From Candidatus Gottesmanbacteria bacterium (GTDB lineage: Bacteria; Patescibacteriota; Microgenomatia; 2-02-FULL-39-11): 60,063 nt of DNA. The DNA lies in the NCBI GenBank assembly GCA_016195685.1, contig JACPZE010000026.1, forward strand, positions 1 to 60,063, in the 5' to 3' direction. Made by a program: the position numbers and the translations under genes. A model generated the notes under the pieces. It was not told the DNA's origin and ran no database searches. It was given only the letters and a program-made list of their open reading frames with translations. Positions 1 to 49,366 of this stretch are shown piece by piece (within the stretch, counting starts at the first letter, position 1; each line of letters begins with the position of its first letter).

Positions 1-780
1 GGTAATTAGGTACATTCTACCGAAAATCGATTAAGATAAATAGTAGAATGGATCGCCGGAAATGTATATTTTGTAGATACTACCGTGCACGGGGCAATTC
101 TTTGGGTAGAATTTACTGCCCGAGATGCAAAAGGAGATATTCCTTTAAGAGAGCTGAAAGACTTGGAAAGATCATTGAATACTTTGCTTTGGAGATACCA
201 GCTAATAAAGCCAGCAAAGTATTGCACCTTAACTACAAGACCGTATACAGAGTCTACCAAAGACTCAGAGAGAAGATCGCTGGAAAAACCAAAGAAGAGT
301 TTAGAAAACTTTCTGGAGAGATTGAGATTGATGATGCCTACTTTGGTGGAAGAAGAAAGGGAAACAGAGGAAGAGCAGCTTCTGGAAAAACTCTTGTTCT
401 TGGCATGCTGGAGAGAGATGGAAGAGTATTTACCACTCTCCCAGAGAATCTCGAACTTGGACAAGTACTTGATGCCATTAGCAGGCATGCCGAGAAAGGC
501 AGTGTATTCTATACTGATCAATTTAGAAGCTACAAGTCCCTGTTTATCTATGGCAGACATCTGAGTCTTAATCATGCTGAGAAGTTTGCCAATGGGAGAG
601 TCCATATTAATGGTCTTGAAGGTTTCTGGTCCTTTGCAAAAGAGAGGATGCTTAAGTATCATGGGATATCTAAGAAACACTTTGCTCTTTACTTGAAGGA
701 ACTTGAGTTTCGATACAATCATAGAAAACAAGATTTAATAAAAATATTTACCGAATTATGGTAAAAAGTACCTAATTACC
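1..780 (+). mobile_element. IS1595-family insertion sequence
   Basis: 21-bp terminal inverted repeats, 19/21 identical (ggtaattaggtacattctacc at 1-21; reverse complement of 760-780 is ggtaattaggtactttttacc), enclosing one transposase ORF. Left flank and target duplication lie outside the window. Confidence 0.93.
48..764 (+). CDS. IS1595 (ISXO2-like) DDE transposase
   Basis: N-terminal CxxC..CxxC zinc finger; motifs EIDDAYFGG, YTDQFRSY, HINGLEGFWS, YLKELEFRYN. Stop codon falls inside the right TIR. Confidence 0.93.
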   Translation: MDRRKCIFCRYYRARGNSLGRIYCPRCKRRYSFKRAERLGKIIEYFALEIPANKASKVLHLNYKTVYRVYQRLREKIAGKTKEEFRKLSGEIEIDDAYFGGRRKGNRGRAASGKTLVLGMLERDGRVFTTLPENLELGQVLDAISRHAEKGSVFYTDQFRSYKSLFIYGRHLSLNHAEKFANGRVHINGLEGFWSFAKERMLKYHGISKKHFALYLKELEFRYNHRKQDLIKIFTELW

Positions 781-783
781 AGG

Positions 784-977
784 GTGAATATGTGACGGAG
801 GCGAAACCGTAAAAGTCAGCAACGAGTGTCGGAAACGGAGCTCGTCAGAAACAAGATTTTCTTACTGACGTGTCCCGATTTGATCGGGACATTTTTGTAA
901 GACGATAAATCAAGGTGGCACCACGAATAATTCGTCCTTGAGTATCCCCGCTTAGCGGGGAGAAAGGGGATTTTTTT
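784..977 (+). promoter_or_regulatory. T-box riboswitch (trp), stem I absent
   Basis: T-box aatcaaggTGGCaccacg (908-925); caagg 911-915 pairs with ccttg 936-940. Alternative terminator ends in T7 at 971-977, directly before the trpE ATG. S-turn-like GAA 786-788 / AGCA 818-821, F-box-like CTCGTCA 841-847, stem III 861-901. UGGC fits a G73 discriminator. No UGG specifier between the IS and the T-box. Confidence 0.85.
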
Positions 978-44650: not shown

Positions 44651-44679
44651 TTGACAAAGCATTTTAAATGTTTTAATAT
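44651..44679 (+). promoter_or_regulatory. sigma70-type promoter
   Basis: TTGACA-17-TAATAT. Confidence 0.65.
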
Positions 44680-44685
44680 AAGTGA

Positions 44686-44763
44686 TGTATATCACACAAA
44701 GTTGTGTGAACAAGACTGAGAAGTCTTCCAACGGTCTGAGGAGACCAGAGGGAGATTTTTTTT
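44686..44763 (+). ncRNA. candidate structured RNA: three hairpins, twin UGAG(A/G)A loops, alternative terminator
   Basis: tcacaca-aagt-tgtgtga, agac-tgagaa-gtct, ggtc-tgagga-gacc; gtcttcc can instead pair with gggagat ahead of T8. Confidence 0.5.
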
Positions 44764-44823
44764 ATGCAATTTGGTATGTATTTAAAGAAATTTTTTCGCA
44801 TCGTACTTTGGATTCTTTTTTAA
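44764..44823 (+). CDS. candidate 19-aa small ORF MQFGMYLKKFFRIVLWILF
   Basis: ATG follows GAGGGAG plus a T tract; may be a relic or not translated. Confidence 0.3.
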   Translation: MQFGMYLKKFFRIVLWILF

Positions 44824-44870
44824 GAAATAAATGTCTTCTTCTGTCCTAAGACTGTCTTTTCTATTGGTCG

Positions 44871-44899
44871 TTGACCATTAAATCTAAAGTTGCTAAACT
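44871..44899 (+). promoter_or_regulatory. promoter of the ser operon
   Basis: TTGACC-17-TAAACT with extended -10 TG. Confidence 0.75.
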
Positions 44900-44905
44900 A
44901 GTGGA

Positions 44906-45119
44906 CAAATTATAAAGACGTATAATACCGAATTCCATCGGTAGAGTCGCTTTACGAAAATCCCGCTCAGCGGGAATTAAGTAAAGCCGGGTATTCCCGT
45001 TACAGAAGAAATAAGAAAGTAATCAGAAATAACTGATTATTTAATTTAGGTGGTACCACGGAAGATAACTTTCGTCCTGAAATTCCGAGTTTTATCGTCG
45101 GAAAGTAAGGACTTTTTTT
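44906..45119 (+). promoter_or_regulatory. T-box riboswitch (ser) with an ultrashort stem I
   Basis: T-box aatttaggTGGTaccacg 45043-45060 with 3' strand ttcgtcct; AGTA 44980-44983; F-box CCCGTTA 44996-45002; hairpin taccga-atTCCa-tcggta 44926-44943; terminator gtcct...aggac plus T7 abutting the ATG. Confidence 0.87.
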
Positions 45120-47009
45120 ATGGATAAAACATATTTCATCATCGATTTTGACAGTACTTTTGTACAGGTAGAGACGCTGGAAGTTTTAGCAGAAGTTGCT
45201 CTTTTGAAAAACCCGAAGAGAGATTTCATATTGGAAAAAATAAGAAAGATAACAGAGCAGGGGATGAATGGTAAGATCAGTTACGAGAAATCATTGGGAG
45301 AAAGGTTGAAATTATTTCAAGCCAGCCAAAAAAATGTGGATGATCTGGTAAAGATATTGAAAAAGAAGATCACTCCATCCATAACGCGCAATAAAGAGTT
45401 TTTCAAAAAATATAAAGACAAGATATATATCATTTCCGGCGGATTTAAGGAATACATGGTACCACTTTTTAAAACTTTCAAGATAGAAAAAGATCATATT
45501 TTGGCTAATAATTTTATTTTTGACAAAAAAGGTTACATCGTGGGTGTTGATAAAAAAAATCCCCTGTCTCATGCCAGAGGCAAAGCGGCAATAATAAAGT
45601 CATTGCAGCTTAAAGGTAAAATTTATGTGATCGGTGATGGCTACACAGATTATGAAATCAAAAAAGCAGGACTCGCAGATAAATTTTTTGTCTTTCACGA
45701 AAATGTGAAAAGAGAAGCTGTAATCGGTAAGGCAGATCATCTTTTGCCGAACTTCGATGAATTTTTGTACCAGTTGGATTTGCCAAGGGCGTATTCTTAT
45801 CCCAAAAGTAAAATAAAAGTATTATTGTTGGAAAATATCCATAAAAATGCTTTTGAAATATTTCAAAAGGAAGGATATCAAGTGGAGTCACTAACTGGCT
45901 CTTTTGACGAGGAAGAACTAATAAGGAAACTCCAAGATGTAAATATAGTCGGCATAGGATCCAGAACGCAGATTAGCAAAAAAGTGATAGAGGAGGTTCC
46001 TAGACTTCTATCTGTAGCAAGATTTGGAATAGGAGTAAATAACATAGATCTGAAAACCTGTGCTGGGGCTGGTGTTGCGGTATTTAACGCACCATATAGT
46101 AATACTCGCAGTGTGGTGGAATTAGCATTGGGTGAGATAATCATGCTTTACAGGCGTGTTTTTGAAAAAAGCGATAAGCTACATCGCGGAATTTGGGATA
46201 AATCCGCCAAAAATTGTCATGAATTGAGAGGTAAGAAACTTGGTATCGTGGGTTATGGAAACATCGGGTCACAAATTTCTGTACTAGCTGAGATGCTGGG
46301 AATGGAGGTATATTTTTATGATATTTTGGAGAGATTGCCTCTTGGAAAAGCAATAGTCTGTACTTCTTTAAATGAGCTTTTGCGAATTTCAGATGTCATA
46401 AGTATCCATGTAGATGGTAGACGTGAAAACACAAACCTTATTGGCGAGAAAGAATTTAAGTTTATGAAAGATGGAGTCTTGTTTATAAATACCAGCCGGG
46501 GGTCGGTAGTAGATTTAGAGGCATTAGCGAAGTTTGTAAAAAGTGGCAAAGTGTTGGGTGTTGCATTGGATGTTTTCCCCAAAGAACCCAAAAGTAACGA
46601 TGAGAAGTTTGTCTCGATAATCCAAGGGTTGCCGAATGTTATACTCACGCCTCATATAGGCGGCAGATCAGAGGAAGCCCAGGCAGATATGGGTAAGTTT
46701 GTGCCAGAGAAAGTTATAAGTTTTATCAACACTGGTAATACTACATTGAGTCTTAATTTTCCCAACTTGCAACTGCCGCAGCTTAGAAACGCCCATAGAC
46801 TTATACATATACATCATAACGTGCCGGGAGTTTTGGCAAAGATAAACAATGTTTTAGCTGCGAATAAGATTAATATCGAGGGGCAGTACTTAAAAACTAA
46901 TGAGGAGATAGGATATGTGATTACCGATGTCGATAAGTCCTACGACAAGGATGTTTTACAAAAATTACGCCAGATTCCCGAAACAATCAAATTCAGGGTT
47001 TTATATTGA
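45120..47009 (+). CDS. serA: phosphoglycerate dehydrogenase with an N-terminal HAD phosphatase (SerB-SerA-ACT fusion)
   Basis: DFDST, ISGG and GDGYTD HAD motifs; GYGNIG, NTSRG, TPHIGG; C-terminal ACT domain HHNVPGVL. Confidence 0.92.
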   Translation: MDKTYFIIDFDSTFVQVETLEVLAEVALLKNPKRDFILEKIRKITEQGMNGKISYEKSLGERLKLFQASQKNVDDLVKILKKKITPSITRNKEFFKKYKDKIYIISGGFKEYMVPLFKTFKIEKDHILANNFIFDKKGYIVGVDKKNPLSHARGKAAIIKSLQLKGKIYVIGDGYTDYEIKKAGLADKFFVFHENVKREAVIGKADHLLPNFDEFLYQLDLPRAYSYPKSKIKVLLLENIHKNAFEIFQKEGYQVESLTGSFDEEELIRKLQDVNIVGIGSRTQISKKVIEEVPRLLSVARFGIGVNNIDLKTCAGAGVAVFNAPYSNTRSVVELALGEIIMLYRRVFEKSDKLHRGIWDKSAKNCHELRGKKLGIVGYGNIGSQISVLAEMLGMEVYFYDILERLPLGKAIVCTSLNELLRISDVISIHVDGRRENTNLIGEKEFKFMKDGVLFINTSRGSVVDLEALAKFVKSGKVLGVALDVFPKEPKSNDEKFVSIIQGLPNVILTPHIGGRSEEAQADMGKFVPEKVISFINTGNTTLSLNFPNLQLPQLRNAHRLIHIHHNVPGVLAKINNVLAANKINIEGQYLKTNEEIGYVITDVDKSYDKDVLQKLRQIPETIKFRVLY

Positions 47010-47010
47010 A

Positions 47011-48087
47011 ATGAAAAATATATTTTTCACTCCAGGACCGACGCAGTTGTATCCTACCGTCGCCAGGCACCTTCAAAAGGCCATAAAGGAGGATATCGCC
47101 TCTATATCTCATCGAGGAGAGAAATTCCATGAAATTTATGATGATACTCAGAACGCTTTGAGGAAATTGTTAAAAATCCCAAAAGACTTCCAAATTTTCC
47201 TTCTTTCATCCGGCACGGAAGCGATGGAGCGGATTATAGAAAATACAGTTGGAGAAAGTAGTCTTCATCTTGTCGGCGGTGAATTTTCCAAAAGATTTTA
47301 TGAAACAGCGAATTTTCTACACAAAAAAGCCGAAAAAGTCGAGGTTGCCCCCGGGCTAGGATTTGATTTTGGTCAAATTGATATCGGCAGGCAAGTAGAA
47401 TTGGTTTGCTTTACCCATAACGAGACAAGTACAGGTGTAGCATTGCCGATGAATGAAATATATGGGATTAAAAAAAGATTTCCAGACAAACTGATTGCGC
47501 TGGATACCGTATCCTCATCTCCATACGTAGATGTAGATTTTGGATATGTTGATCTGTGTTTCTTTTCCGTACAGAAAGGATTTGGTTTGCCAGCCGGTTT
47601 GGGAATAGTGATAGTAAGCCCGACAGCAATGAAAATAAACGAGAGTCTGGAGCGGAAAAATTATATGGTAGGTACTTATCATAGTTTCGGTGAACTTTTA
47701 AAATATAGCGAGAAATTTGAAACTCCTGAAACGCCGAATGTCTTGGCAATTTATCTATTGGGGAAAGTAGCCCAGGATATGCTCAAAATAGGTATACAAA
47801 AGATAAGAAAGAATACCAAAGAGAAAGCCGATCTTTTGTATAATTTTTTCGAAAAACAAGAAGGATTTAGGCCATTTGTGAAAGAGAAGAAATATCGCTC
47901 AAATACTGTGATCGTAGTGGAGACGGATAATGATTCATCGGTGTTTATAGAAAAGTTGAAAAAGAGAGGGCTGGTAGTAGGGAATGGCTATAAGGATTTT
48001 AAAAACAAGCAGTTGCGTATCGCTAATTTCCCGGCACATTCAACAACTGATGTAAAAAGATTGATAAGAGAAATTAAAAATATATAA
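47011..48087 (+). CDS. serC: class V aminotransferase, probable phosphoserine aminotransferase
   Basis: FFTPGP, HNETSTG, DTVSS, SVQKGFG (PLP Lys), TPETP; lies between serA and serS. Start taken at ATG 47011. Confidence 0.82.
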   Translation: MKNIFFTPGPTQLYPTVARHLQKAIKEDIASISHRGEKFHEIYDDTQNALRKLLKIPKDFQIFLLSSGTEAMERIIENTVGESSLHLVGGEFSKRFYETANFLHKKAEKVEVAPGLGFDFGQIDIGRQVELVCFTHNETSTGVALPMNEIYGIKKRFPDKLIALDTVSSSPYVDVDFGYVDLCFFSVQKGFGLPAGLGIVIVSPTAMKINESLERKNYMVGTYHSFGELLKYSEKFETPETPNVLAIYLLGKVAQDMLKIGIQKIRKNTKEKADLLYNFFEKQEGFRPFVKEKKYRSNTVIVVETDNDSSVFIEKLKKRGLVVGNGYKDFKNKQLRIANFPAHSTTDVKRLIREIKNI

Positions 48088-48094
48088 TAAAACT

Positions 48095-49366
48095 ATGCTA
48101 GATATAAAATTTATACGGGAAAACTTAGAGCTTGTCAAAAAGGCAGCTGAAGATAAAAATCGCGAAGTGGATTGGGAGAAATTATTAGTGCTTGATGAGA
48201 AGAGGCGGAAATTGATTGTTGATATTGAAAGCTTACGCGCACAGCGGAATAAATGGTCAGATCTTAAACCACCAAATTTGAAAACAGGATTGACAGAGGG
48301 AAATAAAATCAGAGAGCAAGGAAAGAAATTAAAAGAGGAGATAAAAAAGTTAGAAGAAGAATTAAGTAGTGTTGAGAAAGAATTTACTACATTGATGCTC
48401 TTAGTACCCAATGTGCCCGATAAGAGCGTTCCAATAGGAAAAGATGCATCAGGAAACAAAGAAGTGAAGCAGTGGGGGGAAGTACCGAAGTTTGATTTCA
48501 AGCCTCTTGATCACATTGAGCTTGGTAAAAAATTGGATCTCATAGATTTTGAGCGAGGAGTGAAAGTGGGAGGATTTCGGACTTATTTTCTGAAAAATGA
48601 GGCAGCGCTTTTGGAAATCGCCGTATTAACATATGCATACCAAAAGTTAGCTAAAAAAGGATACATTCCGCTAGTTGCCCCATCACTAGTTCGTGGATTT
48701 ACTCTTTTTGGCAACGGCCAGTTTCCATGGGGTAGGGAAGAAGTTTATCATCTTGAAAAAGATGATATGTATATTGCAGGTACAGCTGAAGTCCCTGTGA
48801 CTGCTTATTTTGCCAATGAAATTTTAAACGAAAAAGAAATGCCTAAAAAATTTGTGGCATTTTCCCCTTGTTTCAGACGAGAAGCCGGAAGTTACGGGAA
48901 AGATACGAAAGGGCTTTACAGATTACATCAGTTTAACAAAGTAGAGCAGGTGATTATTACCACCAATGATTACGAAAATTCATTAAAACTCCACGAAGAA
49001 TTATTGGAAAACTCTGAAGAAGTTTTGCAGGATCTGAAGCTTCCTCACAGAGTGATGCTGATGTGTACTGGAGATATGGGTGAGCCTCAGGTGAAAAAAT
49101 ATGATGTAGAAACCTGGATGCCGGGAAGAAACGCATATGGTGAGACGATGTCTAATTCTTTCATGGGTGATTTCCAGGCGCGCAGATTAAACATTCGCTA
49201 CAAATCATCAGACGGTACTACTAAAGTTGCTCACACATTAAACAATACCGCCGTCGCCTCACCCCGAATTCTTATTGCCATCCTCGAAAATTATCAGCAA
49301 GCAGACGGCTCGGTAGTAGTGCCGGAAGTTTTACGGGACTTTGTGGGAGAAGAAGTAATAAAATAA
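48095..49366 (+). CDS. serS: seryl-tRNA synthetase
   Basis: MLDIKFIREN, GTAEVP, FRREAGSYG, HQFNKVEQ, HTLNNT. Confidence 0.97.
   Translation: MLDIKFIRENLELVKKAAEDKNREVDWEKLLVLDEKRRKLIVDIESLRAQRNKWSDLKPPNLKTGLTEGNKIREQGKKLKEEIKKLEEELSSVEKEFTTLMLLVPNVPDKSVPIGKDASGNKEVKQWGEVPKFDFKPLDHIELGKKLDLIDFERGVKVGGFRTYFLKNEAALLEIAVLTYAYQKLAKKGYIPLVAPSLVRGFTLFGNGQFPWGREEVYHLEKDDMYIAGTAEVPVTAYFANEILNEKEMPKKFVAFSPCFRREAGSYGKDTKGLYRLHQFNKVEQVIITTNDYENSLKLHEELLENSEEVLQDLKLPHRVMLMCTGDMGEPQVKKYDVETWMPGRNAYGETMSNSFMGDFQARRLNIRYKSSDGTTKVAHTLNNTAVASPRILIAILENYQQADGSVVVPEVLRDFVGEEVIK

What the first reader, a model, noticed from the sequence alone, without database searches (positions are those of the whole stretch)
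44871..45122. Serine T-box with an ultrashort stem I and the specifier in the apical loop
Seen: only about 40 nt separate the predicted start site from stem II. They form gac/gtc, an asymmetric internal loop and taccga-AUUCCA-ucggua, which puts the Ser codon UCC plus a 3' A in the terminal loop, ahead of serA-serC-serS. The AGTA box, F-box and UGGU bulge are present. The final helix pairs the AGGA next to the ATG and is followed by U7, so it could act on both transcription and translation. Known: ultrashort stem I T-boxes are described mainly for actinobacterial ileS leaders. Inference: a compact T-box of this class for another amino acid, another lineage and a biosynthetic operon.
Basis: partly seen in the sequence, partly recalled or inferred. 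Interest (0 to 1): 0.8.

Follow-up and report, generated by a model that had tools for sequence, protein, structure and literature searches.

The report
Minimal serine T-box riboswitch, CPR bacterium
This is a real tRNA-sensing T-box riboswitch for serine whose codon-presenting arm is cut down to one small hairpin; it belongs to a conserved, apparently undescribed family in Gottesmanbacteria (candidate phyla radiation) that pairs this minimal arm with a transcription terminator, a pairing the field regards as unusual.

Summary
Rfam's T-box model matches 44912-45082 in full (69.2 bits, E 6e-15), but below its 93-bit cut-off. The reason is that 74 stem I model positions are replaced by the 6-nt loop AUUCCA.

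The window comes from a Gottesmanbacteria-like (CPR/Patescibacteria) genome. I found 18 distinct homologous leaders ahead of serS or serine-pathway genes. In all of them:
- UUCC is invariant in the apical loop.
- The specifier hairpin, stem II, stem IIA and the IIB pseudoknot covary.
- A conserved promoter lies only about 25-35 nt upstream of the hairpin, which leaves no room for a canonical stem I.

Trp leaders of the same lineage have the same design, with UGG in the loop.

Unlike the actinobacterial ileS ultrashort class, which is translational, 15 of 16 Ser leaders end in a G+C-rich hairpin followed by U6-8. In some of them the start codon lies 37-95 nt further downstream. In the window the hairpin's 3' arm carries the SD AGGA, and U7 is the spacer to the ATG, so control of both transcription and translation is plausible.

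This is a new variant of a known kind. tRNA binding and the mode of action are untested.

The parts
44871..44899 (+). Promoter-like site: -35 TTGACC (44871-76), 17-nt spacer, -10 TAAACT (44894-99). Predicted start about 44906.
   Evidence: A promoter of the same type sits at the same distance in relatives.
44917..44948 (+). Ultrashort stem I: base helix GAC/GUC, internal loop GUAUAA/GA, and the specifier hairpin 44926-44943.
44934..44936 (+). Specifier codon UCC (Ser) in the apical loop AUUCCA (44932-37), followed by A44937.
   Evidence: TTCC is invariant in 16 of 16 aligned leaders and in L105 and L110.
44949..44987 (+). Stem II: lower helix 44949-55/44981-87, upper helix 44961-66/44970-75, with a GAAAA / AUUAAGUA (AGUA box, S-turn-type) internal loop.
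   Evidence: All 4 counted lower pairs covary.
44988..45008 (+). Stem IIA (44988-91/44996-99), F-box CCGUUA (44997-45002) and the stem IIB pseudoknot partner AAG (45006-08), which pairs with loop nucleotides 44993-95.
   Evidence: The pseudoknot covaries in the family. In the window one of its three pairs is an A-G mismatch.
45020..45039 (+). Stem III: UAAUCAG-AAAUAA-CUGAUUA.
45043..45078 (+). T-box sequence and antiterminator: helix A1 45048-50/45076-78, bulge UGGUACC 45051-57 (UGGU pairs with the tRNA NCCA end), helix A2 45058-64/45069-75.
45074..45112 (+). Terminator/sequestrator: switching helix GUCCU 45074-78 / AGGAC 45108-12, 4x4 internal loop, and a hairpin 45083-88/45098-103 that forms in both states.
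   Evidence: -17.6 to -19.4 kcal/mol against -12.9 for the antiterminator state.
45108..45111 (+). Shine-Dalgarno AGGA, inside the 3' arm of the terminator and 8 nt before the ATG.
   Evidence: The same layout occurs in L094, L102, L138 and L142.
45113..45119 (+). U7 tract: terminator tail and SD-to-AUG spacer.
   Evidence: A U6-8 tract is conserved in 15 of 16 Ser leaders.
45120..47009 (+). Regulated gene 1: HAD (SerB-like) + D-3-phosphoglycerate dehydrogenase (SerA) + ACT fusion, 629 aa.
47011..48087 (+). Regulated gene 2: serC-like class V aminotransferase. The longest ORF starts at 46927; the probable start is the ATG at 47011.
48095..49366 (+). Regulated gene 3: serS (seryl-tRNA synthetase).

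Best explanation
The leader at 44906-45119 is a serine-specific T-box riboswitch with a minimal decoding arm.

Shown by sequence and comparison:
- It has every T-box module except the long stem I. The UCC specifier sits in the apical loop of a 6-bp hairpin on a 3-bp base helix.
- Stem II (S-turn type) and the IIA/B pseudoknot follow directly.
- The T-box bulge UGGU lies in an antiterminator that competes for GUCCU (45074-78) with a downstream helix. That helix contains the SD AGGA and is followed by U7 and the ATG.

Inferred from established T-box knowledge:
- Uncharged tRNA-Ser(GGA) pairs its anticodon with UCC. The stem II/IIA-B module clamps that duplex and substitutes for the missing elbow-binding platform.
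- The free NCCA end pairs with UGGU and stabilises the antiterminator. RNA polymerase then reads through and the SD is exposed, so serB/A, serC and serS are expressed.
- Charged tRNA-Ser cannot do this. The more stable terminator/sequestrator then forms, ending transcription at U7 and masking the SD on any full-length transcript.

The family evidence points to transcription termination as a real output, with SD occlusion as an added layer in this particular leader.
For: - Rfam T-box full-length match, E 6e-15; a window-wide scan gives E 6e-13.
- 18 distinct homologous leaders found.
- TTCC is invariant in the loop.
- Structure counts: 92.9% of cells paired against 79% in shuffles (0 of 500 shuffles as high). 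12 of 17 pairs show compensatory changes across the specifier hairpin, stem II, stem IIA and the IIB pseudoknot.
- RNAalifold independently predicts the same helices.
- Promoters lie 23-37 nt from the hairpin.
- The genes behind the leaders are all serine-related: serS, SerA/SerB fusions, HAD and His_Phos_1 phosphatases.
- The bulge is UGGC in 17 of 18 leaders. This fits the G73 discriminator of bacterial tRNA-Ser (established knowledge).
- The terminator state is more stable than the antiterminator state: -17.6/-19.4 against -12.9 kcal/mol.
- 15 of 16 leaders carry an 8-13 bp hairpin plus U6-8.
- In L123, L132 and L130 the start codon lies 47, 37 and 95 nt past the U-run. L123 and L132 have their own SD there, so for them only transcription can be controlled.
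- Trp leaders of the lineage use the same design with UGG.
Against: - There is no experimental evidence, and no tRNA-Ser gene was found in the window or in 54 related loci. The anticodon and discriminator of the ligand therefore rest on general knowledge.
- The window has UGGU, not the UGGC of its relatives, which implies a G-U wobble with G73.
- The window's terminator is atypical: 5 switching base pairs and a 4x4 internal loop. The simple terminator scan did not call it.
- The 5' GA of a canonical K-turn is UA here.
- The closest homologues of the fusion gene (L081, L084, L087) have only 37-60 nt upstream and no leader.
- Only about 20 of 80 serS loci carry the element.
Confidence: 0.8

Rival explanations
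1. Purely translational T-box, like the actinobacterial ileS ultrashort class. The final helix would be only an SD sequestrator, and U7 merely an A/U-rich spacer in an AT-rich genome.
For: - So far, ultrashort stem I is known from translational T-boxes. The review PMC7583486 argues that transcriptional T-boxes need the elbow-binding platform for fast tRNA capture.
- The SD AGGA lies in the 3' arm, 8 nt from the ATG.
- The window's switching helix is weak for a terminator.
- Relative L112 has no U-run at all.
Against: - A U6-8 tract directly after a G+C-rich hairpin is conserved in 15 of 16 Ser leaders and in the Trp leaders. A sequestrator does not need one.
- In L123, L132, L130 and L177 the start codon lies 37-150 nt beyond the hairpin. 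L123 and L132 show their own SD there.
Confidence: 0.15
2. Decayed or non-functional T-box remnant that has lost stem I by deletion.
For: The match is below Rfam's gathering score. A second T-box in the same window has in fact lost its stem I to an IS element.
Against: - The short stem I is conserved and covaries in 18 leaders. The codon is invariant and the promoter keeps its position.
- All other modules are intact.
Confidence: 0.03
3. The loop specifies another amino acid: UUC (Phe) or CCN (Pro) read from UUCCN.
For: UUC is as invariant as UCC. CCA, CCG and CCC are all Pro codons.
Against: - Every downstream gene set is serine-related.
- The base after UCC varies (A, G or C), which would require different tRNA-Pro isoacceptors.
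- UGGC matches a G73 discriminator. That fits tRNA-Ser, not the A73 of tRNA-Phe or tRNA-Pro (established knowledge).
Confidence: 0.02

Closest known systems
Ultrashort-stem-I ileS T-boxes of Actinobacteria (Mycobacterium ileS; Sherwood et al. 2015; structures 6UFG and 6UFM, as cited in PMC7583486)
   Same: The specifier is mounted in the apical loop of a short stem I. There is no elbow-binding double T-loop platform. Stem II and the IIA/B pseudoknot are present right next to stem I. The SD lies within the alternative helix.
   Different: - Amino acid: Ser (and Trp in relatives), not Ile.
- Lineage: CPR Gottesmanbacteria, not Actinobacteria.
- Targets: biosynthetic operons as well as the synthetase gene.
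- The alternative helix is followed by a conserved U6-8 tract, and in several relatives it is far from the start codon, so it is terminator-type.
- The base after the codon is not always a purine: A 8, G 2, C 6 among the 16 aligned leaders.
- Many relatives insert a hairpin 3' of the specifier hairpin.
Canonical Firmicutes Ser T-boxes (serS and serA leaders, Rfam RF00230; for example Paenibacillus polymyxa serA, PMC8002221)
   Same: Same ligand logic, same gene class, the same T-box sequence, stem II, IIA/B, F-box, stem III and terminator/antiterminator switch. I recall UCC as the Ser specifier in Firmicutes too, but did not check this.
   Different: About 74-90 nt of stem I are missing: the internal specifier loop with its S-turn, the AG bulge and the distal loop. 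Scores are 30-69 bits against a 93-bit cut-off. The SD lies inside the terminator arm.
glyQS T-boxes (another natural minimal form)
   Same: They show that whole T-box modules can be dispensed with.
   Different: glyQS keeps the long stem I and loses stem II and IIA/B. This family does the reverse.

Membership tests
T-box leader (Rfam RF00230) | Conserved T-box sequence with a UGGN bulge inside an antiterminator helix | tested here: met
   AGGUGGUACCACGG at 45048-61 aligns to the model with high posterior probability.
T-box leader (Rfam RF00230) | A mutually exclusive terminator/sequestrator that shares a strand with the antiterminator | tested here: met
   GUCCU 45074-78 is used by both helices. 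Terminator state -17.6 kcal/mol, antiterminator state -12.9.
T-box leader (Rfam RF00230) | Specifier codon that matches the amino acid of the regulated genes | tested here: met
   UCC is invariant. The downstream genes are serS and serine-pathway genes.
T-box leader (Rfam RF00230) | Stem II with AGUA/S-turn, stem IIA/B pseudoknot, and F-box | tested here: met
   Covariation is seen in all three helices.
T-box leader (Rfam RF00230) | Long stem I with an internal specifier loop and a distal elbow-binding platform | tested here: not met
   74 model positions are replaced by 6 nt. The promoter leaves only about 20 nt before the hairpin.
T-box leader (Rfam RF00230) | Score at or above the curated gathering threshold (93 bits) | tested here: not met
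   The window scores 69.2 bits. Relatives score 30-52 bits or are undetected.
T-box leader (Rfam RF00230) | Binds uncharged cognate tRNA and switches in response | not testable with these tools
   No tRNA-Ser gene is present in the sequence held. This needs biochemistry.
Ultrashort-stem-I (class II, translational) T-box | Specifier in the apical loop of a short stem I that lacks the platform, with the stem II domain present | tested here: met
Ultrashort-stem-I (class II, translational) T-box | Expression platform is an SD sequestrator with no intrinsic terminator | tested here: not met
   The SD is sequestered, but a U7 tract follows. U6-8 is conserved in 15 of 16 leaders, and some relatives have remote start codons.
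Ultrashort-stem-I (class II, translational) T-box | Match to the TBDB class II covariance model | not tested
   That model is not available here. TBDB ran it only on Actinobacteria and on class I hits with a truncated stem I.
K-turn at the base of stem I | 3-nt bulge followed by tandem G.A / A.G pairs | tested here: inconclusive
   The 3' GA is present (44944-45), but the 5' side reads UA, not GA. A canonical GA/GA arrangement is seen in Ser leaders L102 and L098 and in the Trp leaders.

The most novel reading that the evidence does not exclude
CPR (Patescibacteria) T-boxes form a distinct class in which a platform-less, ultrashort or short stem I is routinely coupled to an intrinsic terminator. 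If so, the tRNA-elbow contact is not a general requirement for co-transcriptional tRNA sensing, contrary to the current generalisation. The class serves at least Ser and Trp, and Rfam-threshold annotation does not detect it.
Probability: 0.45. Interest if true: 0.75.

Novelty: new variant of a known kind. Interest (0 to 1): 0.65.

Why it matters
- It extends apical-loop-specifier T-boxes beyond actinobacterial ileS to other amino acids (Ser, Trp), to biosynthetic operons, and to the candidate phyla radiation. I found no T-box paper for that lineage in the library I could search.
- It challenges a current view. A 2020 review holds that T-boxes acting on transcription need the long stem I platform to capture tRNA fast enough. 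Here the minimal arm sits in front of conserved terminator-plus-U-tract platforms. That gives a compact natural system, about 215 nt, for testing the kinetic argument.
- It has a practical consequence. All members score 30-69 bits against Rfam's 93-bit cut-off, so standard annotation misses them. The regulatory RNA content of CPR genomes is therefore underestimated.

Tried and rejected
- The default Rfam gathering scan of the window found nothing. Only the E-value mode showed the T-box.
My model R1 finds nothing credible in them. They serve only as a negative control.
- The three closest homologues of the fusion gene (L081, L084, L087) have no leader. The leader therefore tracks serS and serine genes in the lineage generally, not this particular gene.
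- ARAGORN found no tRNA-Ser in the window or in 54 loci. The ligand could not be examined.
- The Sherwood 2015 and 2018 papers are not held. The comparison with the actinobacterial class rests on reviews.
- A canonical K-turn reading of the window's internal loop was considered and left inconclusive.
- I first read the hairpin UUUACC-GAAUUAU-GGUAAA near 748 as a second apical specifier. I rejected this: it is the terminal inverted repeat of an IS element.
Those gap values are not used.

Full report
**1. What is there**

- A sigma-70-like site, TTGACC-17-TAAACT, lies at 44871-44899. It predicts a start near 44906.
- The RNA then forms a 3-bp base helix (GAC 44917-19 / GUC 44946-48).
- An asymmetric internal loop follows (GUAUAA on the 5' side, GA on the 3' side).
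- A 6-bp hairpin (UACCGA 44926-31 / UCGGUA 44938-43) carries the loop AUUCCA. UCC is at 44934-36 and is followed by A.
- Stem II starts at 44949, about 43 nt after the predicted start.

The default Rfam scan of the window finds nothing. The E-value scan gives a full-length RF00230 T-box alignment at 44912-45082: 69.2 bits, E 6e-15, against a gathering score of 93. In that alignment 74 consensus positions of stem I are replaced by 6 nt, while the AGUA box, stem IIA, the F-box, stem III and the T-box sequence align with high posterior probability. The minimum-free-energy fold of 44905-45125 reproduces all helices with a z-score of -5.5.

The downstream ORFs are as follows:
- a HAD(SerB-like)-SerA-ACT fusion at 45120-47009
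- a class V aminotransferase (serC), probable start 47011, ending at 48087
- serS at 48095-49366

**2. Which organism**

The best named relatives are Candidatus Gottesmanbacteria (Microgenomates, CPR/Patescibacteria):
- fusion protein: 71% identity
- SerS: 73-79%
- TrpE: 61-66%

**3. Is it conserved**

The three closest homologues of the fusion gene have only 37-60 nt upstream and carry no leader.

A metagenome scan with the window's SerS returned 80 loci. Motif searches and a covariance model built here (R1) give:
- 18 strong hits at 70-98 bits, which collapse to 15 distinct leaders (the window scores 76.6)
- L112 at 38 bits
- two divergent minimal variants, L105 and L110

In the 16-sequence alignment A2 the four loop bases TTCC are invariant. 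The loop is 5-10 nt long, and the codon always sits at its 3' end. One base (A 8, G 2, C 6) separates it from the stem.

Counting pairs on A2 gives:
- Specifier hairpin: 6 pairs, 100% paired, 4 with compensatory changes.
- Lower stem II: 4 of 4 pairs compensatory.
- Stem IIA: conserved.
- IIB pseudoknot (IIA loop nucleotides 2-4 with AAN after the F-box): all three pairs covary.
- Overall: 92.9% of cells paired against 79% in shuffles (0 of 500 as high), and about 50% when partners are slid.

RNAalifold predicts the same helices on its own.

In 12 of 16 leaders a TTGAC[AC]-N17/18-TAnnnT promoter ends 23-37 nt before the hairpin. The distance is 59-68 nt in two leaders that carry an extra 5' hairpin. 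A canonical stem I of about 90 nt cannot fit.

The window's TATAAT at 44921 corresponds to non-promoter sequences in relatives.

Many relatives insert a hairpin between the specifier hairpin and the 3' strand of the base helix. The window, L123, L133, L140, L142, L105 and L110 are the minimal form.

**4. What the leaders control**

The genes behind the leaders are:
- serS alone
- a 20-codon ORF plus serS
- His_Phos_1 phosphatase plus serS
- HAD phosphatase plus serS
- SerA-HAD fusions plus serS
- unknown proteins of 292-316 aa plus serS

Every set is serine-related, which fixes UCC as the specifier rather than UUC or CCN. The bulge is UGGC in 17 of 18 leaders. This fits the G73 discriminator of bacterial tRNA-Ser (established knowledge). 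The window has UGGU.

**5. Expression platform**

In the window, the antiterminator (A1 45048-50/45076-78, A2 45058-64/45069-75) and the downstream helix compete for GUCCU 45074-78.

- The downstream helix is 5 bp (with AGGAC 45108-12). It stacks, through a GAAA/AGUA internal loop, on a hairpin (45083-45103) that forms in both states.
- It is followed by U7 and then the ATG.
- The SD AGGA (45108-11) lies in its 3' arm.
- Energies: terminator state -17.6 kcal/mol (MFE -19.4), antiterminator state -12.9. The default state is therefore OFF, as in other T-boxes.

Across the family, 15 of 16 Ser leaders carry an 8-13 bp G+C-rich hairpin followed by U6-8.
- The start codon abuts the U-run in the window, L094, L098, L102, L138 and L142.
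- It lies 47, 37 and 95 nt further on in L123, L132 and L130. L123 and L132 have their own SD there. In those leaders only transcription can be regulated.
- L112 lacks a U-run and looks like a pure sequestrator.

My reading is that termination is a genuine output of this family. The window's leader adds SD occlusion, and its terminator is weaker than most.

**6. Generality in the lineage**

The window holds a second T-box (RF00230, 32 bits, at 746-942) ahead of trpEGDCFB.

Trp leaders of relatives (L174, L175, L176, L179) have the same ultrashort stem I. An example is AGC-UUU-GA-UCCGG-[AGGGUUGGAA]-CCGGG-GA-GCU, with UGG plus A in the apical loop and a canonical K-turn signature. All end in a terminator plus U6-7 followed at once or after one base by an ATG. 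In L174 and L179 that ATG lies upstream of the trpE start.

Parcubacteria and Kaiserbacteria Trp leaders (L177, L178) have a short stem I. It consists of a small distal hairpin with UGG on the 3' side. There is again no platform-sized stem, and again a terminator with a U-run.

**7. Comparison with what is known**

[quoted passage not shown] It says these ultrashort forms are translational and mostly actinobacterial. [quoted passage not shown]
- TBDB applied its class II model only to Actinobacteria and to class I hits with a truncated stem I.
- Full-text searches for T-box together with CPR, Patescibacteria, Microgenomates or Gottesmanbacteria returned no paper.
- Relatives score 30-52 bits on RF00230, and four of them are not detected at E <= 0.01.

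The window's element works like a T-box and carries the T-box core. It fails two membership criteria of the curated family: the long stem I and the gathering score. It also fails one criterion of the actinobacterial class, which has no terminator. I therefore file it as a new variant of a known kind.

**8. Limits**

- Nothing was tested biochemically.
- The tRNA ligand was not found in any sequence held.
- The transcription start is predicted, not mapped.
- The K-turn reading is inconclusive for the window.
- I cannot exclude that some of these leaders are already listed in TBDB without comment.

Noticed in passing
window 1-977: A second T-box (core GGTGGCACCACG at 914, terminator + U7 + ATG at 978) precedes trpEGDCFB. 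Its stem I is missing. An IS1595-family element (transposase ORF 48-764, terminal inverted repeats 1-37 and 744-780) ends at 780, and homology to intact Trp leaders (L175, L176, L179) begins at about 783. The IS appears to have cut off the riboswitch's specifier arm. The contig starts exactly at the IS end.
   Followed up: partly
window 44651-44824: A separate small unit lies upstream of the Ser T-box. It has a promoter-like TTGACA-17-TAATAT (44651-79), three small hairpins, and a terminator-like hairpin (UCUUCC...GGGAGA) plus U8. An ATG directly after the U8 opens a 19-codon ORF (44765-44824, MQFGMYLKKFFRIVLWILF). The same peptide family (KKFFRxxIWxxF*) sits between the Ser T-box terminator and serS in L092, L094 and L101. 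Function unknown; there is no significant Rfam match.
   Followed up: partly
L174 1110-1400; L175 1115-1370; L176 1745-2003; L179 665-950: Gottesmanbacteria Trp T-boxes have the same ultrashort stem I as the Ser family. UGG plus A sits in a 10-nt apical loop, and the base of the stem has a canonical GA/GA K-turn signature.
   Followed up: partly
L177 1095-1360; L178 190-415: Parcubacteria and Kaiserbacteria Trp T-boxes have a short stem I made of a base stem CAGG/CCUG, a small distal hairpin, and UUGGG on the 3' side. A terminator plus U6 follows. In L177 the start codon is about 150 nt further on.
   Followed up: no
L112 1395-1646: A Ser leader of the family (hairpin AUGGU-UUCCA-ACCAU) has no U-run after the alternative helix. 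The serS SD GGAG lies close by, so this looks like a purely translational variant within the same family.
   Followed up: no
L094 4155-4190; L101 1546-1620; L102 1384-1425; L123 4385-4435; L132 4406-4445: Many relatives carry a conserved insertion in antiterminator helix A2 (for example CCAUGGUUCGGCAAGCUCACCACAAGCGGAACCGUCC). The window lacks it. Its role is unknown. One possibility is an extra tRNA contact, like stem Sa of staphylococcal glyS T-boxes.
   Followed up: no
L089 3162-3244; L094 4310-4360: A conserved hairpin-forming element (CCCAUUUCUUUGCUUGyCCAArGAAAUrGGUAGGAAAGAAAA) lies just upstream of serS in two loci, downstream of serC or of the small ORF. It is not present in the window.
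   Followed up: no
window 45120-47009; L089, L098, L130, L137: SerA and the SerB-like HAD phosphatase are fused in two opposite domain orders in this lineage. The window has HAD-SerA-ACT; the relatives have SerA-HAD. The closest non-CPR homologues of the window's form are in Cytophagales (58-60% identity), which hints at lateral transfer.
   Followed up: no
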